A stretch of 64,000 bases of DNA from Candidatus Heimdallarchaeota archaeon. GTDB lineage: Archaea > Asgardarchaeota > Heimdallarchaeia > Heimdallarchaeales > Heimdallarchaeaceae. The notes under the pieces were generated by a model, which was not told the DNA's origin, searched no databases, and saw nothing but the letters and a program-made list of their open reading frames with translations. The position numbers and the translations under genes are program-made. The DNA is taken from the NCBI GenBank assembly GCA_030603365.1, contig JAUVXV010000015.1, forward strand, positions 40,421 through 104,420, in the 5' to 3' direction. Numbering within the stretch: the stretch's first letter is position 1; each line of letters opens with the position of its first letter. This document shows positions 13,484 through 28,490 of this stretch, piece by piece.

Positions 13484-16207
13484 TTAATTTAGAGTAAAAC
13501 CATATCTTCTACTTCTACTTTTAAATGCATCCTCGCCCCCTTCTAAGGAAATTACAGATTTCAAAGTTTCAGGACAATCAAGATAACCAGTTTGATTAAC
13601 TTTACCCTTTTTATCACCTAAAGCTTTGATTTCATGTATCAATTCTGAATCAGCTAACACTGGAATGTTGGGATTGTGTGTAACGAATATTTGTTGAGTA
13701 TGATATTTCGATTTACTAATAGCATCAATTACTTGTGTAATAAAATAATGATGATCCATTTCTGATTCAGGAGTATCTATTATCAAGATTCTAGGATTTG
13801 ATTTTTGAAGTAGAATTATACTCAAAATAGTGCCACATTTTTCCCCTAGACTAAGTTCTTCTAGCTGTTCATGTTTTAAATCTTTCAATAATTGTATTCT
13901 AGGCAGGTGGGGCACGGGTTGCATTATAGCATTCATAAAACCTTCATCAATTCTTTTGGTATGAAGAATAGAAACAACTCTTTTATCCACATTTTTCTCG
14001 AGCAACTGAGAGTATTTAGATGTAGAATTTAAATATTCAAACAATTCTAAAGGATGTACAAAAGTTTTTAACAGATTTCTAAATTTAATTTCTTTGTTTC
14101 TAATTTTATATTCATTCCCAGTGAATTTAATAACTAGATTATCAATTACTTCATCCAAATAACGTTTATTACTGAACTCGATTCTAATATTGGGCAAATT
14201 TTTGCTTATGTACGAAGCAGTTTCATCTCTCTTTTTTTGAATTTTTGAATCAATTTTTATAATTTGTTTTATATTCCTAAGTATGCCATTTTCTATTTCA
14301 ATAATTTCCTTGTTTAATTCTTCATACTCAGGAATAAAAGTTTTATTTATTGAAATCAATTCTTCCCTTTTACCATTTAGATTATCAACAATTGCACCAA
14401 CATCATGTGTGGTTTTGTCCAATTTAGATTTGTACTCACTCTCAACCTCATCGTACATCTTTTTCCATTTATCCAACAAACCGCTTATTTCATCATGGAT
14501 TTTAATAGTTAAACTTTCATTTAGTATGCTACGAACTCTCTCTTTCAGCTGATCTATAAATTCGCTATTTTTTACAGAAATTTCATTTATTAAATCATTA
14601 TTCAAAATTGAATCTTTCTCTAAAGTAGGAGTTTTTGGATAAGGTACATCACACATCACAGTAGCTATTTTCTCAAGAAATTTTTGTGTGTTTTTTATAA
14701 ACTTGAATTCTTCTTGCCATTCCTGATAATTTTGGACAAAATCAAATTTAACTAGAGCGGATAGTTCATCAATTCTATCTTCTAAATTTCCTTTTTGGTT
14801 TATTTTTTCTTCTAGGGTTTCAATTTTCTCTTGAATTTCAATAATTTCTTGTATTTTACTTTTAATATATCCACATTCTTTGTTTCTTAGTTTGAAGAGC
14901 TTTTTATCCTCAATATAATCATCAATGAGTTTAAGCTGATCACCGGTTTTCTTAGCTATTTCAACAAGCTCTCCTTGACCATAAATTTCTGTTTCTATAA
15001 GTGTGCTTAATTTTTCAACTTCTTCACGAATAATACTATCATTGTGCAAGTAAAATAGAATTGTATTTCCTTGATTAGAAATATCTTCTACATATGTTCT
15101 CTTCACAATGTACAATTTACCATCATTACCGTAAAAATATACATATACTGAGTTACCGTATGATAGAAGATTCATTATCTTGGATTCATATTCTTTATAA
15201 CCTATTTCAGTAATCGGTAAATCATTGAATGCAAATTGAATCAGATTAACTAAAGTTGATTTTCCAGCACCTCTACCTCCAATCAAAACATTAAGATTAG
15301 GATGAAAAGCTATCAATTCATCCTCAAAATATCCACCTGAAACATGTACTCCCAAAATTCTTTGTTTAGTTATTGATGGTGGATCTTGCCTAATTACTCT
15401 TAATTTGGGTTCTCTCAGTACTTTCTTTAAGTTTTCAAATGTGGGATTTTGCATTTTTAGAAAAGAGTATCTTGAACCGATTTTTCTTTCATCCTCAGAT
15501 GTATCATCTAATGTATGACAATCTGAACCGAATAAACAAGGTCTATAGAGGAAGTTCAAACCTTCATCAGTTCCATCAAAGAACTTTGTATCATTTTCAT
15601 CTCTGATTTCTACAAAGAATGGCAAGTTTTTTATCCTTTCTGCAATCACAACTCTATATGAATCTCGAAATTCGTTTCCAAAGCCTTTATGACTACTTGA
15701 ATGAGCTAGAATAGCAATTCCATTTTTATCATTAATTATTTTGATAACTTCAAACAGACCTAAAGGATCAGGTTTAGCAACTGCAGTTTTTGGATCACAG
15801 TTTTCCTCAATATTAAGAGTTCGAAGAATTGAATTAATCATTGACTCTTCTTCATGTATTGCTATTACATGAACATAAGGATGTTGAGAAGAATCAACAA
15901 GAGATTTAGGTACGTTGATCTCCACACCTGCTAAGACTAATATTCCATACTTCATTGCTTTCTCTTTAAAAATTTCAAAATCCTTAATACAATTATGATC
16001 AGTTAGAGCAATTATTTCTAAACCAACATCATTGGCTTTTTTCATAAGCTTTTCAGCGTATTCATCAACAGTCAGATCTGATTTAACATCATATGAGTTT
16101 AGAGTGTGTATATGTAAATCAGCTTTATAGAATTTAGATGATTTTTCTTCTAAAATACCTAACAAAAGTTCGATATTTGCTTTAATTCTTTCATCCTCAG
16201 ATTTCAT
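13484..16207 (-). CDS. PHP phosphoesterase fused to ABC/SMC-like ATPase (Ppl/TrlF-like defence protein)
   Basis: KADLHIHT, ALTDHN, GVEI, LAH, GSDCH (PHP); Walker A GGRGAGKST, coiled coil, LSLGEK, LIIDTPE, FVTHNPNIPV. Confidence 0.85.
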   Translation of the reverse strand: MKSEDERIKANIELLLGILEEKSSKFYKADLHIHTLNSYDVKSDLTVDEYAEKLMKKANDVGLEIIALTDHNCIKDFEIFKEKAMKYGILVLAGVEINVPKSLVDSSQHPYVHVIAIHEEESMINSILRTLNIEENCDPKTAVAKPDPLGLFEVIKIINDKNGIAILAHSSSHKGFGNEFRDSYRVVIAERIKNLPFFVEIRDENDTKFFDGTDEGLNFLYRPCLFGSDCHTLDDTSEDERKIGSRYSFLKMQNPTFENLKKVLREPKLRVIRQDPPSITKQRILGVHVSGGYFEDELIAFHPNLNVLIGGRGAGKSTLVNLIQFAFNDLPITEIGYKEYESKIMNLLSYGNSVYVYFYGNDGKLYIVKRTYVEDISNQGNTILFYLHNDSIIREEVEKLSTLIETEIYGQGELVEIAKKTGDQLKLIDDYIEDKKLFKLRNKECGYIKSKIQEIIEIQEKIETLEEKINQKGNLEDRIDELSALVKFDFVQNYQEWQEEFKFIKNTQKFLEKIATVMCDVPYPKTPTLEKDSILNNDLINEISVKNSEFIDQLKERVRSILNESLTIKIHDEISGLLDKWKKMYDEVESEYKSKLDKTTHDVGAIVDNLNGKREELISINKTFIPEYEELNKEIIEIENGILRNIKQIIKIDSKIQKKRDETASYISKNLPNIRIEFSNKRYLDEVIDNLVIKFTGNEYKIRNKEIKFRNLLKTFVHPLELFEYLNSTSKYSQLLEKNVDKRVVSILHTKRIDEGFMNAIMQPVPHLPRIQLLKDLKHEQLEELSLGEKCGTILSIILLQKSNPRILIIDTPESEMDHHYFITQVIDAISKSKYHTQQIFVTHNPNIPVLADSELIHEIKALGDKKGKVNQTGYLDCPETLKSVISLEGGEDAFKSRSRRYGFTLN

Positions 16208-16405
16208 TTTTTATTCCCCTCACTTGTATTTTAGTCAAAAAATACTAATATGCAGTATTCATTTTATATATTTAAGTTTTTTTTACATTTTTAATTAGAA
16301 ACGTATGTTTTTCGTTATACAGTAAGATATTGACTCTTCCAAGAAAGAGGACAATTTGAGATCATCAATTTTATTTTTTCGTTTCTAAAGTTCAACAAAA
16401 TAATA

Positions 16406-16966
16406 TCATAAATGCATTATCTCAAAATCCCATTCTCCTTTCTTTTTATCGGATGGAATTCCTCTTCCTTCTCTATAATAGTTTTCATACCAACTTCCCT
16501 TATAGTTAATAAATCGGTAGAAATCAATATTCCTATCTATACTTAGAAAGTAGACTCTTTTAATGTCATCATCATATCTTTTTAGATCCTGAAATTTCTT
16601 AATATCTTTTTGAGCATCTTCATCTTTTAATTTTGGTAAAAATTTAAACTCAAAAACAAACCAAAATCGGCCTATATCTCTTGTCCAAATTTCTTCATAT
16701 TCCCATTCAGAATCTGCTTGTGATTTCATTATCACCAAATCGTAGAAGTAATTATTATCTGGATCTTTATATTGTAGGAACATTCTTATTCCCGGATATT
16801 TATCAATAAAAGGCCTCAGATAGTGATAAAATGAAGCAATTAAAGTATCTTCATAATACATTATCTTTCTATTCTCCAAATCTTCCTTTACTTTTACAGC
16901 CCATACTCTTTCAATTTCCTCCTCTAGTTCACTTATGTTAGGATAATCCTTCCTTCTTTCATTCAT
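16406..16966 (-). CDS. Putative PD-(D/E)XK restriction-endonuclease-like nuclease
   Basis: E-helix (YEDTLIASFYHYL), YDLVI, FEFKF, and DAQKDIKKFQDL helix typical of this fold. Confidence 0.55.
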   Translation of the reverse strand: MNERRKDYPNISELEEEIERVWAVKVKEDLENRKIMYYEDTLIASFYHYLRPFIDKYPGIRMFLQYKDPDNNYFYDLVIMKSQADSEWEYEEIWTRDIGRFWFVFEFKFLPKLKDEDAQKDIKKFQDLKRYDDDIKRVYFLSIDRNIDFYRFINYKGSWYENYYREGRGIPSDKKKGEWDFEIMHL

Positions 16967-17026
16967 TAAACAACCTCCTCTGATTGCACGTAATTATTTG
17001 ACTATACCTTTATTAATATTATGATT

Positions 17027-17052
17027 AACCTTGCATTAAGGTCTCCTTATTG
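17027..17052 (-). repeat. Dispersed intergenic palindromic repeat, copy 1
   Basis: Reverse complement caataaggagaccttaatgcaaggtt matches 30878-30903 at 24/26. Confidence 0.75.
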
Positions 17053-17206
17053 TAATTTCCTTCTTATAAGAAGAGATGATTACTTGCATTATTTTGCAAT
17101 TACTTCTTTACATATATCTAAAATACGGAATTTTATGTTTTCTTTTATAGATTTTCAGAAAAGGGAAACAAAAAGTTTTATTTCTTACCAATTATAATCT
17201 AGATAT

Positions 17207-18274
17207 ATGGGTGAGAATATGGATAAAAGATATCAAGTATTTGTTAGTTCAACTTTTGAGGATTTAAAGGAAGAAAGAAGCGAGATTATTCATGCACTTT
17301 TAGAATTAAATTGCATTCCAAGTGGAATGGAATTGTTTCCTGCAGCAAATGAAGATCAATGGACTCTAATAAAACAAGTAATTGAAGATTGTGATTATTA
17401 TATTGTGATAGTTGGAGGAAGATATGGTTCAATAGGAATTGATGGGACAAGTTATACAGAAATGGAATATGATTATGCAGTAGAATCAGGAAAACCTGTA
17501 ATTGCTTTTTTACATGAAAATCCGGACAACCTTCCAGTTAGAAAAGTAGATAGAGAAACACAGAAATCAGAAAAATTAAACCAGTTCAGATTGAAGCTTA
17601 AAGAAAAAGTGTGCAAAACATGGACTAATGCTGAGAATCTGGGAGCTGTAGTTAGCAGAAGTTTAATTAGTTTGATGAAAACTCATCCAGCTGTTGGTTG
17701 GGTGAGGGGAGATTTAATTCCTGATGAGGACGCAACTAAAGAGATTTTAAATTTAAGAAGAGAAATAGATGAGTTAAATCAAAGATTATCAGAGTATGAA
17801 AAAGAGACAATAACTGATATAGACAACTTATCTAAAGGTGAGGATAAGTTTGATATTATCTATTCATTCAGTGTTACTAGAGGATTATTAGATGTTTATA
17901 CTTATGAATATAACAGCGTAGCTGTTAAATGGAATGAGATTTTTGCTGAAATTGCACCTTTGATGATTGCTGAAGCATCTGAAGAAAAACTTAAGCGGAG
18001 AATAAATAAATTTCTGGAAAGAGAACTTAAGCTCAAAATACCTGACGAACTTCTTAGATTGAAAGAAAAGGGGACACTTAGATTGGGATCCTTCAGAATC
18101 ATTGATAAAAGCTTTGATTCAATAAAAGTACAATTCCGAGCTTTAGGATTAATAGAAAAAAGCACAAAAAAGCGAAGTGTTACAGATTTAAATGCATATT
18201 GGATTCTCACCAGAACTGGGGACTTATTCATGACACAGCTAATGGCAATAAAAAAAGAAGAACAGCCTCTATGA
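17207..18274 (+). CDS. DUF4062 (TIR-like Rossmannoid) domain protein with coiled coil and C-terminal wHTH-like domain
   Basis: YQVFVSSTFEDLKEER, GMELFPA, IVGGRYGS, SYTEMEYDYA. Confidence 0.88.
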   Translation: MGENMDKRYQVFVSSTFEDLKEERSEIIHALLELNCIPSGMELFPAANEDQWTLIKQVIEDCDYYIVIVGGRYGSIGIDGTSYTEMEYDYAVESGKPVIAFLHENPDNLPVRKVDRETQKSEKLNQFRLKLKEKVCKTWTNAENLGAVVSRSLISLMKTHPAVGWVRGDLIPDEDATKEILNLRREIDELNQRLSEYEKETITDIDNLSKGEDKFDIIYSFSVTRGLLDVYTYEYNSVAVKWNEIFAEIAPLMIAEASEEKLKRRINKFLERELKLKIPDELLRLKEKGTLRLGSFRIIDKSFDSIKVQFRALGLIEKSTKKRSVTDLNAYWILTRTGDLFMTQLMAIKKEEQPL

Positions 18275-18707
18275 TGTTCCTGAACCTAGCAGAATCAAAT
18301 TAGAAGAGTTTACTAGTTTAATGGAAATCAGTTCAAGGAAGATCAAATCATTACTATTCAGTGAAAAACCAGAGAATTTGTTAGAGTGGTAGAAAATTTT
18401 TCATTAGATGAGGTCACCGCTGTTCTTCAAATGCTTAATGTAATCAAATTAGCATCAACTTCTTGTTTAGGTAAATTTTCTTCACTTATGTTAGTTTCTT
18501 GTATCTTTTTCTCTTTTCTCTTCTTAGTTTCTTGTTTTTTCACACTCATCTTATCCTAATCCCATTGGAGTTTTACAAATATTAGATATTTAAGTAATAT
18601 AAAATTTTATTAGCTTTCAAATTCAAAAATAATATCGTAGAACCTTTATTTAAGAAGATATAAATATAGGAGAATTATTTAATAATATCTGTGAGGTTGG
18701 TGAAGAA

Positions 18708-21700
18708 ATGGACCCAGTATCAACTTATCTAATTCTCACTCTGATGGTTCCAATAATATCGGAATTTTTTGGAGATAAACTTTTGAATAGAATATTAGAA
18801 AAACTAAAGTCTTTATTTAAGAGATCATCTAAAAACGAGGTTGATTCAGAAAAAATTGAAGAAAAGATGAGTACTTATCTTAATGATATTTTAGATGAAA
18901 ACGGAGAAAATTCTCAAGAGTTCAAGAAGATACCTTCTTTCTTGATACATATGGGAGAGACAATATCCAAAGTGATCAAACTCTCTGCAGATGAACAAGT
19001 CAAACAAATTAGTATTCAAATTTCATCTGAATTTGAAAAACTTGAAGCAAAAACTGAACTACAGTTTAAAGAATTGAAGAATCTATTTGAAGAATTCCAA
19101 TTTAATATACTAAAGTATTCTAAGGATTTAAACGAAATTAACCAAGAGTTAAAAAATCAACTTACCATATTGAGAAAAAAAATCCAAGAATTTGACACAT
19201 TAATTTCAAAAGAAAATTTAATTCCTCTAAATTACTATCTAAATAGACAAGAAAGTAGAAGAATGCTAGAAAGGCACCCAAAATTAATTGGCAGGTCATA
19301 TGAAATTAATAGATTACTTAATTTTCTAAATAGCAATCAAAACGTAATTTTGATATCAGGTCCAGGAGGAGTTGGAAAAACAAGGCTTATACTAGAATTT
19401 GCAAAGGAGGTTATGAAGTTAAATTCTTGGAGTGTAAATTTCATTAACCACAATAAGGAATTCAAAGTTCAACATGAGACAATTAACAGAGTATTGATTT
19501 TGGATGATGCAACTAGGTATGCAGATAAAATGTCTCTTATTGACTATATCATAAACAATTCAAGAATTAATAATATGAAGTTTATTCTTTTGGATCGAAG
19601 TATATTTAGTCAATCCTTGCAATTGGTATTTAAAGAAAAGAATCACAATCTGGAAATTATTAATTTATCAGAAGGTGATGTAAAAGAATTCTTGGATTGC
19701 TATTACAAGGAATTAAATGAGGAAATAAAGAGAGAAATTAGACAAAAATCAAATAACAACTTTGATTTAACAATTCTATTCGCTGATTTCGCTATTAACA
19801 ATCTAGATATCTCAGATCCATTAGAAATACTTGAAACCAAATTAGTGAAATATATAAAGGATATTGCTATTAGAAGGAAAGTAGATGAAATAGATGTTAT
19901 GACAACATTAAGTTTTATATCACTAATCCGTCCAATTAAAATTGATGATCTTAAATTATTAGCACTCGAATCATCATCTATTCTTAAAAATGAAGATATT
20001 ATTAGTGTTTTATATGATGGTACATCAGATCTTTTAGTTTTGAAGGATGACTATGTAGATTTTATCTTTGATTTTTATTCAGATTATTTGAATGCAAAAC
20101 TTATAATCGAGAAGGAAGACATATTTTTACAAAATTTCCATTCTTTGCTTAAAAAACACCCATTAAATCTGACTTTAAACATTTTAGGTTTATCAAGGTT
20201 TTTTGATGTAAGAATAGGTATAAAAGTTGTAGAAATTATAGAGAATATTTGGTCTGAATTGAACAAGATTCAAAAAGTTGAGGTTGACTATTTCTTGTGT
20301 TTAGGATTGTTAACATTTTATTCAGAATATTTCGCATTTATTAATATAAACTCATGCTCATTAGATGCATGGTTTATAAATTACCAGAATCTATATGATA
20401 AGACGAGTGATAGTGAAAATTTAAAAAGACTCCAATTTGAATTCATTTCAATCTTACAAAACTATATCTCTATACATAAATCTGAGTATAATTTAGAGAA
20501 AATTAAAAGAGCTGTTGATTTTGTTAAAAATCTCTCAGAGGAACAAAAAACACAAGATCTCAATATAATGTATGCAAGAAGTTTGGTAAACGCTAGTGCT
20601 GTAACTAGCTTTCACAGCTTAGTAGATGAAACAAACTACTATATAGAAAAAATCAGAAAATTATACGAAACTAGCAGAGACAATCGTATTTTAGAAATCT
20701 TTTCTATTTCACTTAGTAATAGAATATTAGATTCTAGTCAAAGAGAAAATGAAACTGAGTTAATTGAATATATGACTGAGATTCAGAATTTATTTGAAAC
20801 TGAAAACAAAGAATATGTATCAATAGGATTAAGCAACTCACTAAATATTTCCTGTGATTTTTATGGCAAAAAAAACAAATTTGAGAAACTAGAATTCTAT
20901 ATGAGAAAATTAACAGATTTATCTAATGAATTCGAAACAATGCAGATTAGAAGTTCTTTAAATTCTGTTCTATTAAATTCAACAGATGATTATGGAAGAA
21001 ATGGTATGTGGTCAGAATTGGAAAAATCTCTAAATCAACTAGAATTGATATTTGATACCTATCAAGAAGAAGATACACTTGTTAATTGGATAAAAGGTAT
21101 AGCTAATTCAATAAAATACTATGGCAAAAATAAAATGTACAATGAAATGACATTAGGATTGAATAAACTTACACAGATTTATAAAAAACATAGTTTTATG
21201 AATACAGCAGAGTGGATTTCCCATGCTTTATTTAATGCATCTTATCACTATAGTAAAAATATGAGTACAGAACATCTTAAAGGTATAGTAAAGACCATTT
21301 CTTCACTTGCAAATAAATTTGATAATAATGATTTAAGAGAAAAGTATGCAGGAGTACTCTTTAACATAATTAAAACATACGGTGAACTCAAGAATTTTAA
21401 AAATATGGAAGTCTATTTAGGTGAACTTCATTTTCTTCAAAGTAAATTTCCTTTACAGCCAATAAAGCTATTCTACGTGAAAGCTTTAGTGGATTGTTTT
21501 ACCTATTATGCTATGGACTCAAATAATACAAAAGCAAAAGATTGTCTGAAAGAAATTGAAGAAATAAATAAAGTTTTGAATAATCATGAAATAAGGGAAA
21601 AGTATGGTTTTGTACTTACAAATGCTATACATTTTTATGGAATGAACAAAGAACCGAAAAATATTGAATCAATTATTGAAAAACTGAAAATCCTATTTGA

Positions 21701-22376
21701 ATCAAATCCCTCAGGTTTCTTTTTAGAATTTTATTCAAGAGGTCTGTTAAATGTTATCACTCAATTTGGTCAACTAAACGATCTGAATAAACTTGATCTG
21801 TATTTTGAAGTTTTAAACAACTTATATGATAGTACTGGAAACGACTTTTGTTTAATGGACTTATTATCAGCATATATTAATGTGATATTTTCTCTTTCTC
21901 AAGAAAGAAATATAGAAAAGATAAAATTGTACCTAAAGAAATTTAAAAAGAAATTCAAAATAGGATACAATGAAGTAATTGATATGGCTATTGCTAATAT
22001 ATACTTCAATATACTTCCGGTTTTTGATGTTGATCCGGAATTTTTCTTTGTTTTTACAATTAGATTATATAATTTGCGCTTTCATTTGTTTGAATTTAGT
22101 CCTTTATCTCCACAGAATGAGAAGAATGTTTTCATGTTTGAAAAACCAGATAAAGAGCATGCAATAAAGACAATTGAAAACAAAATTGTAAACTATGTAA
22201 GAAATAAAGTAATCACTTTAATAGAAAGAAATACAGATGAAACAAGAGAAATTCTAAACATTCTCAAGAAAGAAGTAAAGAATTATCATGATTTCACTAT
22301 TCTGTTGGATAAGATTATTGAAAAAATTGATGTTAGTCTTCAATCAAAGATCTTTAAGATAATTGATGAATTATAA
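18708..22376 (+). CDS. STAND/NLR-like P-loop NTPase with N-terminal helical domain and C-terminal 43-aa helical repeats
   Basis: LIGRSYEI, Walker A GPGGVGKTRL, Walker B VLILDDA, sensor-1-like FILLDR; about 11 repeats such as LREKYAGVLFNIIKTYG. Confidence 0.8.
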   Translation: MDPVSTYLILTLMVPIISEFFGDKLLNRILEKLKSLFKRSSKNEVDSEKIEEKMSTYLNDILDENGENSQEFKKIPSFLIHMGETISKVIKLSADEQVKQISIQISSEFEKLEAKTELQFKELKNLFEEFQFNILKYSKDLNEINQELKNQLTILRKKIQEFDTLISKENLIPLNYYLNRQESRRMLERHPKLIGRSYEINRLLNFLNSNQNVILISGPGGVGKTRLILEFAKEVMKLNSWSVNFINHNKEFKVQHETINRVLILDDATRYADKMSLIDYIINNSRINNMKFILLDRSIFSQSLQLVFKEKNHNLEIINLSEGDVKEFLDCYYKELNEEIKREIRQKSNNNFDLTILFADFAINNLDISDPLEILETKLVKYIKDIAIRRKVDEIDVMTTLSFISLIRPIKIDDLKLLALESSSILKNEDIISVLYDGTSDLLVLKDDYVDFIFDFYSDYLNAKLIIEKEDIFLQNFHSLLKKHPLNLTLNILGLSRFFDVRIGIKVVEIIENIWSELNKIQKVEVDYFLCLGLLTFYSEYFAFININSCSLDAWFINYQNLYDKTSDSENLKRLQFEFISILQNYISIHKSEYNLEKIKRAVDFVKNLSEEQKTQDLNIMYARSLVNASAVTSFHSLVDETNYYIEKIRKLYETSRDNRILEIFSISLSNRILDSSQRENETELIEYMTEIQNLFETENKEYVSIGLSNSLNISCDFYGKKNKFEKLEFYMRKLTDLSNEFETMQIRSSLNSVLLNSTDDYGRNGMWSELEKSLNQLELIFDTYQEEDTLVNWIKGIANSIKYYGKNKMYNEMTLGLNKLTQIYKKHSFMNTAEWISHALFNASYHYSKNMSTEHLKGIVKTISSLANKFDNNDLREKYAGVLFNIIKTYGELKNFKNMEVYLGELHFLQSKFPLQPIKLFYVKALVDCFTYYAMDSNNTKAKDCLKEIEEINKVLNNHEIREKYGFVLTNAIHFYGMNKEPKNIESIIEKLKILFESNPSGFFLEFYSRGLLNVITQFGQLNDLNKLDLYFEVLNNLYDSTGNDFCLMDLLSAYINVIFSLSQERNIEKIKLYLKKFKKKFKIGYNEVIDMAIANIYFNILPVFDVDPEFFFVFTIRLYNLRFHLFEFSPLSPQNEKNVFMFEKPDKEHAIKTIENKIVNYVRNKVITLIERNTDETREILNILKKEVKNYHDFTILLDKIIEKIDVSLQSKIFKIIDEL

Positions 22377-22536
22377 ATTTGAATTTATTTACGAAAAATC
22401 TAATGATGTGACAATCTACTAAATAAATATTATACATTTATTTGTTAAATGAAGCACATTCAAAAAACACTTCTTAATGTAATATTTTTATAGATATAGT
22501 TAATATAATAACTATTACCTGAAGTGAGGTTGTTTA

Positions 22537-25080
22537 ATGGTTGATATATTCCAAATTATGAATAGTAGACTAAACACTTGTTTGTTAAGTATTGAAGAAA
22601 ATCTAAAGTCCTTCTGGAATGATAGAGTACTTCACCAACATTATACTGATCATGGAATGAACCATAGTTTTAGAATCAAACAGATTCTTACAAAATTGTT
22701 AGAGGAATTTCCAGATGCACTAAATGAATATGAGAAATTTATACTATTAGGAGCAGCTTTATTACACGACATAGGAATGCAATTTCCAAGTTATTCCAAA
22801 ATTGAGTTAAAAGCACAATATTCACTTGAAGAATTAGAAAGAATCAGAAAGAACCATCACTTAGCTAGTTTTCAGATTATCAAAGATTCAATATCTCCTA
22901 AAACCAATTTCTCACTTGGTTTAGAAACCTGTAAGGATTTTATAAATGAGATTGCGATTGTGTCTCGTAATCATAGAGGGATTAAACTAAATACTATAAG
23001 CAAAAGTTCAATTGCAGGAATGCTCATTAGAAGGAGATTGTTATCAGCATTGCTACGTTTAGCAGATGAATTAGATTCCGATTTTAGGAGGGTTAATATG
23101 GATGTACTTAACATGTATAACTTGCCTCCCTTAAGCAAGTTTCACTGGTGGTCACACCATTATGTAGAGAGTATAATGATTGATAAAGGACACATAATCG
23201 TGTACTTTAGATTTCCAGTAAGCTTCAAACAAGATCAAAAGTGGGTTTCTATTTTTCAACAAAAAACTATAGAAAGTTTGAGAAGTACGTTTCTTGAAAC
23301 TTATGACATCCTAGATGAAAACAAAATTAGACTTTATCGAGAAATAAAAATTGGAAACACTAGGTTTACATCTGAAGGAGAAGTTTTTGATATTCCTAAC
23401 GACTTAAGACAATTTATTACTGAAAAGATAATTAATTCTCAAGAGAAAATCGAAAATGCTTCCAATCGTATTTCTATGGAATTTTATTTAGATGGAATTC
23501 CATACTCAAATGAAATAAATGCAATACAATTCTTAGAAAAGATAGCAGAAAAATTGGATGGTGAAGATTATGAATCAGCTGCTGTACTAATCGAAAAAAG
23601 CAAAACCGAAATTCATTCTGCCAAAGATAGACTAGTTTTATTGCAAATGGCAGGAGTATGTTACTTTAATTTAGGTAAATATGATTTATCCGAAATCTAC
23701 CTAAAAGAAATCCTCGAATTGTCTACTAAGAGTAATTTAAGAAATATCTATAACCAAATCGTAACCAGAGTTTCATCAGCATCTAATAATAATCTAGGAC
23801 TTATGAAATTACACAAAGGCGAATTTACAAAAGCTCTAGAATTTTTCGAAAAATCGATAGAAGAATGTAATACTATAAAAAATCTTGATGGAAAAGCGAT
23901 TGCGATTGATAATAAAGGAGTGGTCCTTCAAAGATTAGGATTGTTAGATGATGCTTTAAAATGTCATTTTGATGCAAATAAGATCTACAAAATAAATAAA
24001 AGAAAATTCGGTGGAGCTAAATCATTTGGAAATATAGCTAATGTATATTTAATGCAGAATAATCTTGATGAAGCTATAAAATATTCTAGAAAAGCAATGA
24101 AATTATTCACTGATTTGGGGAATAAAAGTGGTGAAGCAGAAGAATTACAAACCATTGGAATAATTCACAATCAAAAAAGAAATTTCAAGGAAGCTTTGAA
24201 GAATTTTGCTCAATCTTACAAACTGTTTAATGCAATTGGATTTAAGAGAGGAATTTTAGTAACAAAACATAACATTGCTGGGATTCTGCTTGAAGAAGGC
24301 AGATACGAGTCTTCTTTGAGAATACTTAACAAGATCTTATTGGAAAGTCAAAAAATTGAAAATATGGACCAAGTAGTTTCTGTAATTACAAGCATAGGTG
24401 ATGTCTATTATAGAAAAAGAAACATTAGAACTGCTTTAGATTATTATGAGAGAAGTTTAGAAATGATTAACTATGCTAATTATAATGTAACTAAAAAAAT
24501 ATACTTTAACATTTCATTATTATACGCAGAACTGAATATTATTGAGAAAGCTCAAGAGTTTTTTGAACTACTCTTAGAAAAATATCCAGAAGATGCTGAC
24601 ATTTGTAGTAATTATGCATTGTTTCTATTTTCAAAATTGAACAATATATCAGATGCTGAAATTTATTTTGAGAAAGCAATTAAATTAGATCCAAAAAATC
24701 AAAATAATCATTTAAACTATGCTAGTATGTTACTTTCAGTAGGAAAGAGTGAAGGAATTAGCATTCTTCAATCAACAACCTTTACTAGTAAAGATGCAGA
24801 ACTCAATAAATTGCTAGAACTTGAAAAATCTCTTTATTTGTTTCTCCATGAAAGTCAAGAGGATCCTAATGTGGATTATCTTGTTAACATAAAAACGCTT
24901 CTAGAGAAAGGTTATATCTCTCAAGGAATGGACTTTAGTAGAAACATTGAACAAGCAATTAGAAGTGGTCATAAATATAAAGAAATCTTAGATATTTTGG
25001 GAGAAGTTATATCTGGTGAAATGAGTATTGATGCACTAGAAACATTCGAAATCTGGCAAAAAGTTGAAACAAAGATATAA
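22537..25080 (+). CDS. HD-domain (HD-CE-like) phosphohydrolase fused to a TPR array
   Basis: YTDHGMNHSFRI, AALLHDIGM, RKNHH, LRLADELD, FHW; ~40-aa TPRs such as SFGNIANVYLMQNNLDEAIKYSRKAM. Confidence 0.82.
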   Translation: MVDIFQIMNSRLNTCLLSIEENLKSFWNDRVLHQHYTDHGMNHSFRIKQILTKLLEEFPDALNEYEKFILLGAALLHDIGMQFPSYSKIELKAQYSLEELERIRKNHHLASFQIIKDSISPKTNFSLGLETCKDFINEIAIVSRNHRGIKLNTISKSSIAGMLIRRRLLSALLRLADELDSDFRRVNMDVLNMYNLPPLSKFHWWSHHYVESIMIDKGHIIVYFRFPVSFKQDQKWVSIFQQKTIESLRSTFLETYDILDENKIRLYREIKIGNTRFTSEGEVFDIPNDLRQFITEKIINSQEKIENASNRISMEFYLDGIPYSNEINAIQFLEKIAEKLDGEDYESAAVLIEKSKTEIHSAKDRLVLLQMAGVCYFNLGKYDLSEIYLKEILELSTKSNLRNIYNQIVTRVSSASNNNLGLMKLHKGEFTKALEFFEKSIEECNTIKNLDGKAIAIDNKGVVLQRLGLLDDALKCHFDANKIYKINKRKFGGAKSFGNIANVYLMQNNLDEAIKYSRKAMKLFTDLGNKSGEAEELQTIGIIHNQKRNFKEALKNFAQSYKLFNAIGFKRGILVTKHNIAGILLEEGRYESSLRILNKILLESQKIENMDQVVSVITSIGDVYYRKRNIRTALDYYERSLEMINYANYNVTKKIYFNISLLYAELNIIEKAQEFFELLLEKYPEDADICSNYALFLFSKLNNISDAEIYFEKAIKLDPKNQNNHLNYASMLLSVGKSEGISILQSTTFTSKDAELNKLLELEKSLYLFLHESQEDPNVDYLVNIKTLLEKGYISQGMDFSRNIEQAIRSGHKYKEILDILGEVISGEMSIDALETFEIWQKVETKI

Positions 25081-27368: not shown

Positions 27369-28490
27369 ATGAATAAGAAATTTACGATTGATGAATCTGA
27401 CAAAGTAACTGTCAAGATTATAAAAAATCGTTATATGGATTTTCTTAAAGATCCAAATGTAGTTGGAGTAGCTGTTGGTAGAAAGATACGTGATGGCAAA
27501 GTGACAGATGAACCTTGTATTACTTTTTTTGTAGCTAAAAAAATAGTTAATGAGAAAAAAATACTTCCTGAATTTCTTTTACCTCAGACACTTGAAGAAG
27601 ATGCTGTAGAAGTACAGAGTGATGTAGTAGAGACTGGTCATATATATGCATATGCGGCACATACTTCTCGAGAACGTCCAGCGGTACCTGGTGCTAGCAT
27701 TGGTCATGTTGATGTAACAGCAGGAACGTTAGGAGCAATAGTAATTGATGATAAATCAAAAACCCAAGTTATATTATCAAACAACCATGTTTTAGCAGAT
27801 AGTAATAGAGCCTCTACAAACGATGATATTCTGCAACCAGGTAAAGCTGATGGAGGAACCGTTCCAAATGATGTCATTGGAAATTTACTCAGATTCAAAA
27901 CAATTGATTTTGCTGGAGGTACAAATTACATTGATGCTGCTATTTGCAGCGTGAAAAAGCCTAATTATATTAGTAATACTCCCCATGATGGTATACCAGC
28001 TCCATCGCCTAAGACTCAAGCAGTTGGTTTACTTTTTGCTGGATCAAGTACTCAAACTATAATAAATCCTATCGGTATTGTTCTCAATGAGCTTAAAATC
28101 TCTTTACCTGCAGGTTCTACAATTGAAGGTAGTATTGGTATGAATGTTCAGAAAACTGGTCGAACAACAGGTGGAACAACTAATACAATAAAGAACATAA
28201 ATGCAACAGTTAGAGTTAATTATGGCTCTGCTGGAGAAGCAGTTTTTAGCGACCAAATTGTAACTGGTGACATGTCTGACGGCGGTGATAGCGGTTCTTT
28301 AGTTGTCAAAGGAGGAGCTGGAGCACCAGATGAACCACCAGATAAACCACCAACAAAACCTGGTCCTTGTCCTTGTGGAATTTTCGCACTAGTAGATCCC
28401 CAATTAGACTATACTACAAGTAAAATAGTATTCAATGCATTTAAAGCAAAAAGATTAGCTAAAAAGGAACTGAAGAATAAGAAACAATAA
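27369..28490 (+). CDS. Trypsin-like (S1, NAL1-like) serine protease with N-terminal pro-like domain, no signal peptide
   Basis: TAGTLG, LSNNHVLA (His), ILQPG, IDAAI (Asp), KTGRTTG, GDSGSL (Ser). Confidence 0.85.
   Translation: MNKKFTIDESDKVTVKIIKNRYMDFLKDPNVVGVAVGRKIRDGKVTDEPCITFFVAKKIVNEKKILPEFLLPQTLEEDAVEVQSDVVETGHIYAYAAHTSRERPAVPGASIGHVDVTAGTLGAIVIDDKSKTQVILSNNHVLADSNRASTNDDILQPGKADGGTVPNDVIGNLLRFKTIDFAGGTNYIDAAICSVKKPNYISNTPHDGIPAPSPKTQAVGLLFAGSSTQTIINPIGIVLNELKISLPAGSTIEGSIGMNVQKTGRTTGGTTNTIKNINATVRVNYGSAGEAVFSDQIVTGDMSDGGDSGSLVVKGGAGAPDEPPDKPPTKPGPCPCGIFALVDPQLDYTTSKIVFNAFKAKRLAKKELKNKKQ

What the first reader, a model, noticed from the sequence alone, without database searches (positions are those of the whole stretch)
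22537..25080. HD-CE-like phosphohydrolase fused directly to a TPR sensor, co-oriented with the STAND gene
Seen: complete H..H / HD / HH / H / D metal-ligand pattern, two types of TPR and a C-terminal cap (LLEKG..SQGMDFSRNIEQA..GH). Established: HD-CE domains are usually fused to Hsp90-like ATPases in conflict systems, and HD enzymes can defend by nucleotide depletion. Inference: an effector-swapped one-component sensor (TPR detects a viral protein, HD degrades nucleotides), possibly forming a two-gene system with 18708..22376. My recollection that the cap also occurs in SIR2-TPR proteins is unverified.
Basis: partly seen in the sequence, partly recalled or inferred. Interest (0 to 1): 0.7.

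Follow-up and report, generated by a model that had tools for sequence, protein, structure and literature searches.

The report
Stand-alone HD-CE enzyme fused to TPR sensor
An Asgard archaeon carries, in a horizontally acquired AT-rich island, a single gene that joins a predicted metal-dependent phosphodiesterase (HD-CE) to a long repeat "sensor" whose tail also occurs on SIR2, ParA-like and CHAT–STAND (caspase-like protease) proteins; it looks like a one-protein immune sensor-effector, and nothing links it to the neighbouring STAND gene.

Summary
ORF 22537-25080(+) encodes 847 aa in four parts. First comes an HD-CE domain (Pfam PF24391, E 4.5e-33) with every conserved metal-ligand motif. Then come 40-aa TPR_12-type repeats, two 35-aa "NYA.FL" TPRs and a ~107-aa C-terminal cap.

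The cap is a real domain with no Pfam model. It sits at the extreme C-terminus of 62 cluster representatives.

About 40 HD-CE+TPR clusters without an NTPase exist, mostly archaeal. Only one (P0003, 57% identity) also has the cap.

The proposed two-gene link to the STAND gene is not supported. In 35 non-redundant homolog loci no neighbour recurs and no STAND homolog is present. The STAND gene has no detectable full-length relatives. Neighbours of homologs are mostly housekeeping genes with few PADLOC hits.

The gene is a singleton: HD-CE is absent from the 30 other species genomes searched in its taxonomic family. It lies with Ppl, DUF4062 and STAND genes in an AT-rich island.

Best reading: a self-contained NTPase-less sensor-effector, probably a binuclear phosphodiesterase. 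The substrate is unknown and no function was tested.

The scan's other notes on this gene are on the same DNA.

The parts
22537..25080 (+). Whole gene, 847 aa: HD-CE + middle domain + TPR array + cap
   Evidence: Intact ORF. The ATG is preceded by a GAGGT Shine-Dalgarno-like motif. M1 aligns with the start of homologs.
22636..23220 (+). HD-CE catalytic domain (aa 34-228) with H39/H43, H77-D78, H107-H108, H146, D177
   Evidence: Pfam PF24391 E 4.5e-33. The ligand residues are invariant or nearly invariant. The AF2 model has pLDDT 92.9. HD fold by VIA: Z 12.1 to PPX domain III, ~9 to class-I PDEs.
23221..23556 (+). Family-specific middle domain (aa 229-340), packed with the HD domain; occupies the position where STAND relatives carry the NTPase
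   Evidence: Conserved positions P287, L290, G320, S324. Modelled confidently as helices plus a strand. No Pfam hit and no Walker A.
23557..24501 (+). TPR_12/TPR_10-type repeats, 40-aa period (aa ~341-655)
   Evidence: TPR_12 E 1.1e-35, TPR_10 E 5.9e-18. Repeat register at aa 459/499/539/579/619. Shared with ~40 HD-CE+TPR clusters.
24502..24756 (+). NYA.FL-type 35-aa TPRs (aa 656-740)
   Evidence: TPR_2, TPR_8 and TPR_17 best stretches fall here. NYALFL at 692 and NYASML at 727. Aligns with the SIR2-TPR proteins of same-genus genomes.
24757..25077 (+). C-terminal cap domain (aa 741-847), helical, with conserved E763, Y767, H771, S795, N803, H812, W840
   Evidence: 62 representatives at E<=1e-3, at the C-terminal end. 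Conserved columns. No Pfam model. AF2 pLDDT 96.4, helical. Only generic TPR fold matches.
22377..22536 (+). 160-bp AT-rich spacer with a TTTATA box ~45 bp upstream of the ATG; possible own promoter (inferred)
   Evidence: Read directly from the sequence. Not tested.

Best explanation
The gene encodes a self-contained sensor-effector protein with no NTPase, of the kind used in biological conflict (antiviral or anti-mobile-element immunity).

The TPR solenoid with its conserved cap is the input module. It binds a trigger, most likely a foreign protein, less likely a small ligand at the polar cap pocket.

The N-terminal HD-CE domain is the output. It is a binuclear metal phosphodiesterase that cleaves phosphodiester bonds in nucleotides or nucleic acids once binding relieves autoinhibition or drives oligomerisation. 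The result would be growth arrest or abortive infection.

The gene was acquired horizontally into an AT-rich island. It works on its own, and its adjacency to the STAND gene reflects island clustering.

Shown: the domain content, the intact catalytic motifs, the fold, the modular sharing of the tail, the singleton distribution and the lack of a conserved partner.

Inferred: the defence role, the activation mechanism and the substrate class.
For: - The HD-CE match is strong and all conserved ligands are intact. The HD-domain and tail models are confident.
- Relatives of the HD-CE domain sit at the N-terminus of NACHT, NB-ARC and nSTAND NTPases and of TIR, KAP and LRR-Roc proteins, the position typical of immune effectors.
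- The NYA-TPR+cap tail is shared with SIR2_2, ParA-like and CHAT+nSTAND1 proteins. The same input module is thus combined with different outputs.
- About 40 NTPase-less HD-CE+TPR clusters exist.
- No neighbour is conserved across 35 non-redundant loci, so the protein is a single-gene unit.
- Distribution is patchy. HD-CE is above cut-off in 18 of 400 Asgard species genomes and in 0 of 30 in the same family.
- The gene lies in an island of 28.5% GC against 33.2% elsewhere. The island also holds Ppl (PADLOC E 2.8e-33), DUF4062 and a STAND gene.
- The phosphodiesterase reading rests on three weak lines. The H..H / HD / HH motifs align with class-I PDE signatures at E 0.02-0.04. Pfam PDEase_I scores E 0.016. 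VIA gives Z ~9 to PDEs against 7.4 to SAMHD1.
Against: - No experiment exists.
- The PADLOC models hit only the generic TPR part.
- Flanking genes of homologs are mostly housekeeping: ilvC/ilvB/leuA, beta-lactamase, P-type ATPase, LeuRS, Mfd, URO-D. Among 74 flanking ORFs no PADLOC family was matched by more than two members; the hits are kinase, MkoA-like and TPR models, and the number of distinct ORFs with a hit was not counted. Defence-island enrichment is therefore not shown.
- The similarity to PDEs is marginal, and the best structural match (PPX/GppA domain III, Z 12) says nothing about substrate.
- The family is not found on plasmids or phages, with one weak IMG/VR hit. That neither helps nor hurts.
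Confidence: 0.55

Rival explanations
1. It is a housekeeping or stress-signalling phosphodiesterase, for example one that turns over a nucleotide second messenger or alarmone. The TPRs would act as a scaffold for host partners, not as an invader sensor.
For: Neighbours of homologs are mostly metabolic or housekeeping genes with few PADLOC hits. The structural and profile neighbours are PDEs, HD-GYP, Rel hydrolase and PPX/GppA. TPRs are generic protein-interaction modules.
Against: The gene is a singleton in its family (0 of 30) and rare in the phylum (18 of 400). It has no conserved synteny with any pathway. It lies in an AT-rich island with Ppl and STAND genes. Its two modules recur with NACHT, NB-ARC, TIR, SIR2 and CHAT partners.
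Confidence: 0.22
2. It forms a two-gene system with the upstream STAND NTPase (18708-22376). The STAND protein would sense and recruit or activate the HD-CE-TPR protein.
For: The two genes are adjacent and co-oriented with a 160-bp gap. Both are singletons confined to this genome among the relatives searched. Related HD-CE domains are fused to STAND NTPases.
Against: None of 35 non-redundant homolog loci has a STAND neighbour or any recurrent neighbour. No homolog of the STAND protein was found anywhere, so none can sit beside P0003 at detectable similarity. The spacer carries a plausible promoter. The SIR2-TPR-cap genes have a different neighbour, a RING-finger protein.
Confidence: 0.08
3. 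The cap and NYA-type TPRs sense a small-molecule signal, as was predicted for TPR-S scaffolds and NAD+-derived messengers. The HD-CE domain would then be either the signal-activated effector or a signal-degrading enzyme, perhaps paired with the DUF4062 (TIR-like) gene in the island.
For: The cap has a set of conserved polar residues: E763, Y767, H771, S795, N803, H812. SIR2 is the commonest identified partner of the cap. A SIR2-TPR-cap relative gives a sub-threshold TPR-S hit of 24.6 bits against a cut-off of 27.6. DUF4062 lies 4 kb upstream. The TPR-S prediction itself is recalled from Burroughs and Aravind 2020 and was not read here.
Against: P0001's tail gives no TPR-S hit even at E<=5. No TIR or DUF4062 homolog lies beside any homolog or beside the SIR2-TPR-cap genes. 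The fold is an ordinary TPR solenoid.
Confidence: 0.1

Closest known systems
HD-CE domain family (Pfam PF24391) as the N-terminal effector of STAND NTPases (NACHT, NB-ARC, nSTAND + TPR, WD40 or pentapeptide repeats)
   Same: The same catalytic domain with the same conserved motifs, placed N-terminally and followed by superstructure-forming repeats.
   Different: There is no NTPase between effector and repeats and no Walker A motif. A 110-aa family-specific middle domain sits there instead. The tail carries an extra NYA-TPR+cap module.
DSR2 / DSR1 defence-associated sirtuins (SIR2 + helical-repeat sensor, one protein, no NTPase; recalled from Garb et al. 2022 and later structures, not read here)
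   Same: The logic is the same: an N-terminal enzymatic effector fused directly to a C-terminal helical-repeat sensor. SIR2_2-TPR-cap proteins that share P0001's tail exist in the same genus.
   Different: The effector is HD-CE, not SIR2. The repeats are TPR, not HEAT-like. No PADLOC DSR model hit was obtained. The trigger and any oligomerisation are unknown.
Class-I cyclic-nucleotide phosphodiesterases and HD-GYP / PgpH-type binuclear HD phosphodiesterases
   Same: An HD fold with an H..H / HD / HH / D ligand pattern. Profile hits have E 0.02-0.04 and VIA Z is 8-9.5.
   Different: The similarity is marginal and sequence identity is about 10-15%. There is no GYP motif. The substrate is unknown.
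SAMHD1 / dGTPase-type nucleotide-depleting HD defence enzymes (Tal et al. 2022, recalled)
   Same: HD superfamily.
   Different: The structural similarity is weak (Z 7.4). There is no sequence or PADLOC match. The ligand pattern has extra histidines typical of binuclear diesterases.
ParA-TPR components of ternary ParA/toxin-antitoxin immunity systems (bioRxiv 10.64898/2026.10.19.760177)
   Same: Some cap-bearing proteins are ParA/CbiA-like NTPases with C-terminal TPRs. That paper describes ParA fused to TPR sensors.
   Different: P0001 has HD-CE, not ParA. No toxin-antitoxin pair is adjacent. Whether the paper's TPRs carry this cap was not checked.

Membership tests
HD-CE (PF24391) | Match to the family HMM above the gathering score | tested here: met
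   115.5 bits against a cut-off of 27, E 4.5e-33, aa 34-228. Whole-genome scan: 119.2 bits.
HD-CE (PF24391) | Intact HD-superfamily metal ligands (H..H, HD, HH, H, D), that is, not the inactive iHD-CE form | tested here: met
   H39, H43, H77, D78, H107, H146 and D177 are present, and invariant or nearly invariant in A1, A2 and A6.
HD-CE (PF24391) | HD-domain fold | tested here: met
   AF2 pLDDT 92.9. VIA Z 12.1 (rmsd 4.0, 187 aligned) to the PPX HD-like domain; Z 9-9.5 to PDEs.
STAND NTPase receptors (Avs / bNACHT / NB-ARC-TPR) | Central P-loop STAND NTPase module between effector and repeats | tested here: not met
   No NTPase family hit in P0001. No Walker A motif. Only 110 aa lie between HD-CE and the TPRs.
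   tblastn of P0002 found no hit in any of the 107 loci fetched with the HD-CE-TPR alignment. Neighbour clusters among the 35 non-redundant HD-CE-TPR loci have at most 2 members. P0002 has no homolog in the index.
DSR2-like one-component SIR2 sensors | SIR2 NADase effector domain | tested here: not met
   No SIR2 hit in P0001. SIR2_2 is present only in tail-sharing relatives.
DSR2-like one-component SIR2 sensors | Direct binding of a viral structural protein by the repeat domain, activating the effector | not testable with these tools
   Needs binding and infection assays.
TPR-S sensor repeats (PF20308) | Match to the TPR-S HMM | tested here: not met
   No hit at E<=5 for aa 622-847. Relatives reach only 24.6 bits against 27.6 and E 0.16.
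SAMHD1/dGTPase-type dNTP triphosphohydrolases | Sequence or structural membership in the dNTPase clade | tested here: inconclusive
   No PADLOC or PDB sequence match. VIA Z 7.4 to a fungal SAMHD1, below the PDE and PPX matches.
Known anti-phage systems in PADLOC-DB v2 | Match of the effector part to any defence HMM | tested here: not met
   The only hit is the generic PDLC01169 'TPR' model at aa 494-639.

The most novel reading that the evidence does not exclude
HD-CE+TPR proteins would be a new family of NTPase-independent, one-protein pattern-recognition receptors of archaea and some bacteria, with a phosphodiesterase output. The NYA-TPR+cap tail would be a portable, so far unmodelled sensor module that evolution has attached to at least four output classes: HD-CE, SIR2, ParA-like and CHAT-STAND. 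Asgard archaea exchange it by gene transfer.
Probability: 0.35. Interest if true: 0.65.

Novelty: new variant of a known kind. Interest (0 to 1): 0.45.

Why it matters
If it is a working immune protein, it shows that the HD-CE effector can be driven straight from a TPR sensor without the ATP-dependent switch. HD-CE is otherwise seen mainly on STAND/NLR-type receptors. This would parallel DSR2 for SIR2 and add a phosphodiesterase output to the one-protein receptors.

The C-terminal cap is a conserved domain with no Pfam model. It marks a family of interchangeable sensor tails, so finding its ligand would annotate proteins with several different effectors at once. The case also documents recent acquisition of conflict genes by a Heimdall-group Asgard archaeon.

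The value is limited because the domains are known, the logic is familiar and nothing has been tested experimentally.

Tried and rejected
The 33.5-kb contig of the closest homolog P0003 could not be read. This was the most direct test of the STAND link.
- The word-index search with the tail alone found only the query. The exhaustive HMMER search was needed.
- phmmer of aa 1-340 against PDB sequences found nothing. The profile search gave only marginal PDE hits.
- Foldseek TM-scores against the PDB were low, about 0.33.
- Fold search of the tail returned only generic TPR proteins, so no special fold can be claimed for the cap.
- Literature searches for 'HD-CE', 'iHD-CE', 'TPR-S'+SIR2 and 'HD-TPR/SIR2-TPR' returned nothing relevant. 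The Burroughs and Aravind 2020 paper is not held. The origin of the HD-CE name and the claimed Hsp90-ATPase association could not be checked.
- Protein-mode searches of plasmids and phages found no match. IMG/VR gave one weak partial hit.
- A protein search across 400 Asgard genomes returned almost only TPR-to-TPR matches. The HD-CE family HMM was more informative.
- A split-STAND idea (NTPase in trans) was rejected. The upstream protein has its own repeats, and no P-loop neighbour recurs.
- A Thoeris-like link to DUF4062 was considered and found unsupported.
Full report
**1. What is there**

The window has an intact ORF at 22537..25080 on the + strand, 847 aa. Pfam assigns aa 34-228 to HD-CE (PF24391) at E 4.5e-33, 115.5 bits against a cut-off of 27. 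The region from about aa 340 to 740 matches many TPR models: TPR_12 at E 1e-35, TPR_10, TPR_2, TPR_8 and TPR_17. NCBIfam gives only generic TPR hits. PADLOC gives only a generic TPR model.

These positions are invariant or nearly invariant in alignments of 31, 48 and 35 homologs (residues checked). The enzyme therefore looks catalytically competent.

There is no Walker A motif. The upstream STAND protein has GPGGVGKT at aa 218.

The repeats fall into two kinds:
- a strict 40-aa period at aa 459, 499, 539, 579 and 619;
- two 35-aa NYA.FL-type TPRs at aa 692 and 727.

**2. Structure**

An AlphaFold2 model of aa 1-345, built with 48 aligned sequences, has mean pLDDT 92.9. It shows a helical HD core, a beta-hairpin (aa 210-227) and a further helix/strand/helix unit (aa 234-312). 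Together these form one compact body.

No solved structure is close:
- phmmer against PDB sequences found nothing.
- Foldseek gave E about 2e-4 to domain III of exopolyphosphatase, with TM about 0.33.
- The Foldseek-independent search gave Z 12.1 to PPX, 11.7 to GppA and 9-9.5 to class-I cyclic-nucleotide phosphodiesterases. It gave 8.2 to an HD-GYP protein, 7.8 to a Cas10d HD domain and 7.4 to a SAMHD1.
- A profile of the N-terminal domain hit PDE6 and PDE5 at E 0.02-0.04. The alignment places H..H, HD and HH on the PDE signature motifs. Pfam PDEase_I is at E 0.016.

These are weak signals. Together with the ligand-rich pattern they favour a binuclear phosphodiesterase over a SAMHD1-type triphosphohydrolase. 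The substrate is unknown.

**3. The tail**

The last ~215 aa align end to end with the C-terminus of 818/819-aa proteins in two genomes of the same genus: 36% identity, E 9e-27. Those proteins have an N-terminal SIR2_2 domain (PF13289) and TPRs. One of them is OLS32414.1 of Heimdallarchaeota archaeon AB_125.

A search with the 113-aa cap alone against 1.84 billion cluster representatives gave 62 hits at E<=1e-3, nearly all ending within a few residues of the protein's C-terminus.

Among 38 longer hits, 36 have TPRs, 9 have SIR2_2 and 3 have a ParA/CbiA-like NTPase. One, in a separate ten-protein scan, has CHAT plus an nSTAND1 NTPase, and several have N-terminal regions of 200-490 aa without a Pfam match.

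The consensus is NYA.FL-type TPRs followed by L.LE..FY.YAH ... G.RSPGWDLS.NV.RA..DGHP ... F..W. P0001 keeps E763, Y767, H771, S795, N803, H812 and W840.

No Pfam model covers the cap, and the TPR-S model does not hit P0001's tail even at E<=5. The model of aa 659-847 has pLDDT 96.4 and is a helical continuation of the solenoid. Its fold matches are generic TPR proteins.

**4. The family**

The 5.8-billion-protein index holds about 40 clusters of HD-CE plus TPR_12-type repeats without an NTPase. They share 33-41% identity and come from Methanotrichaceae, Altiarchaeota, a Heimdallarchaeote and several bacterial phyla. One close relative, P0003, has 57% identity and 843 aa. Only P0003 shares the cap, at 44% identity over the last 219 aa. 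None of the 107 genome and metagenome loci fetched with the family alignment matches aa >820. P0001 and P0003 therefore look like a family-typical HD-CE+TPR body that gained the NYA-TPR+cap module.

More distant HD-CE domains sit at the N-terminus of a range of proteins:
- STAND-type NTPases: NACHT, NB-ARC and nSTAND;
- other partners: KAP NTPases, LRR-Roc, TIR, WD40/pentapeptide and FGE-sulfatase proteins.

**5. Is it paired with the STAND gene?**

All available tests say no:
- tblastn of the STAND protein and the other island genes against the 37 genome loci and 70 metagenome loci found nothing.
- In 35 non-redundant HD-CE+TPR loci with 106 flanking ORFs, no neighbour family recurs more than twice, and no large P-loop gene is adjacent.
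- The annotated neighbours are mostly housekeeping: ilvC/ilvB/leuA, a beta-lactamase-fold protein, ETF-QO, a P-type ATPase, LeuRS, Mfd and URO-D. Exceptions are one GmrSD and one kinase-WD40 plus a 1507-aa protein with a weak PDC-M54A-like hit.
- PADLOC on 74 flanking ORFs gave no family matched by more than two members. The hits are kinase-type (PD-T4-6 and mad6 models), MkoA-like and TPR models.
- The STAND protein has no full-length homolog in 83 genomes of its class or in the protein index at E<=1e-5.
- The SIR2-TPR-cap genes are preceded by a 900-aa RING-finger protein unrelated to the STAND.
- The 160-bp spacer before the gene has a TTTATA box and a GAGGT motif, compatible with its own promoter (inference).
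- The STAND protein has its own N-terminal helical segment and its own repeats.

One gap remains.

**6. Setting**

The genome is a Heimdall-group Asgard MAG (3.65 Mb, 17 contigs, 89% complete) with a single HD-CE gene. The HD-CE family passes its cut-off in 18 of 400 Asgard species genomes. It is found in none of the other 24 genomes of the genus and none of the 30 of the family.

The gene has 29.5% GC and the island 13484-25080 has 28.5%, against 33.2% for the rest of the window. The island also holds:
- a PHP+ABC-ATPase matching PADLOC Ppl at E 2.8e-33;
- a DUF4062 protein;
- the STAND gene.

The local setting is therefore a horizontally acquired conflict island, even though homologs elsewhere are not visibly clustered with known defence genes.

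**7. Interpretation**

The best-supported reading (about 0.55) is a self-contained, NTPase-less sensor-effector. TPR+cap is the input and an HD-CE phosphodiesterase is the output. It would work like DSR2-type one-protein sensors but with another enzyme.

The evidence is architectural and distributional. The defence role, the activation step and the substrate are inferences.

Three rivals remain:
- a housekeeping signalling phosphodiesterase (about 0.22), favoured by the ordinary neighbourhoods of homologs;
- a small-molecule-sensing tail (about 0.10);
- the two-gene STAND model (about 0.08).

The protein does not match any described system in full.

**8. Novelty**

The domains and the logic are known, so this is a new variant of a known kind. 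The NTPase-less HD-CE+TPR architecture is unannotated in the sources consulted: 'tetratricopeptide repeat protein', 'Ycf3', 'PilF'. It is combined with an unmodelled cap domain that is shared across several effector classes.

The scan's other notes on this gene (e1-5503968, e1-5503963, e1-5503978) are readings of the same DNA, not independent finds elsewhere.

Noticed in passing
L059:285-7557 (-) and L060:7599-14859 (-), same-genus genomes G017 and G018: A conserved three-gene row. It holds a 900/905-aa protein ending in a RING finger (zf-RING_2, E 1e-7), then the SIR2_2-TPR-cap protein (818/819 aa). A 642/633-aa protein follows, which in L060 has a Cas12f-like TNB domain. A RING-finger protein next to a SIR2 sensor in an Asgard archaeon may merit its own look.
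   Followed up: partly
window 13484-16207 (-): A PHP + ABC/SMC-type ATPase protein, 907 aa. It matches PADLOC Ppl (E 2.8e-33) and weakly matches LmuB and mad3.
   Followed up: partly
window 17207-18274 (+): A 355-aa protein with an N-terminal DUF4062 domain (E 5e-29) and an unassigned C-terminal 260 aa. It has no PADLOC hit. It lies between the Ppl-like gene and the STAND gene.
   Followed up: no
Proteins P0122, P0126, P0127, P0131, P0141, P0152, P0167 and others: Many cap hits are only 86-150 aa long. They are either free-standing cap proteins or gene fragments at contig ends. Which of the two was not resolved.
   Followed up: no
L005:1168-13735 (+), Vulcanimicrobiota MAG: The HD-CE-TPR homolog (1243 aa) is the third of three large co-oriented genes. 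The first is a protein kinase-WD40 protein (1244 aa). The second is a 1507-aa protein with weak PDC-M54A/OloA-like PADLOC hits. This may be a multi-gene conflict cluster.
   Followed up: partly
L008:1283-3870 (+), L016:2605-5281 (+) and L038:10098-12130 (+): In these loci the HD-CE part and the following part are separate adjacent ORFs: 338+516 aa, 308+590 aa and 218+450 aa. They could be frameshifts or genuine split forms.
   Followed up: no
Proteins P0018 and P0025: Two different HD-CE+TPR proteins (634 and 590 aa) are both reported from contigs whose longest is 13,417 bp. This suggests tandem paralogs on one contig.
   Followed up: no
window 27369-28490 (+): A cytoplasmic Nal1-like (NARROW LEAF 1) trypsin-fold protease, with matches to NAL1_N and Nal1_C. 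It lies just downstream of the island.
   Followed up: no
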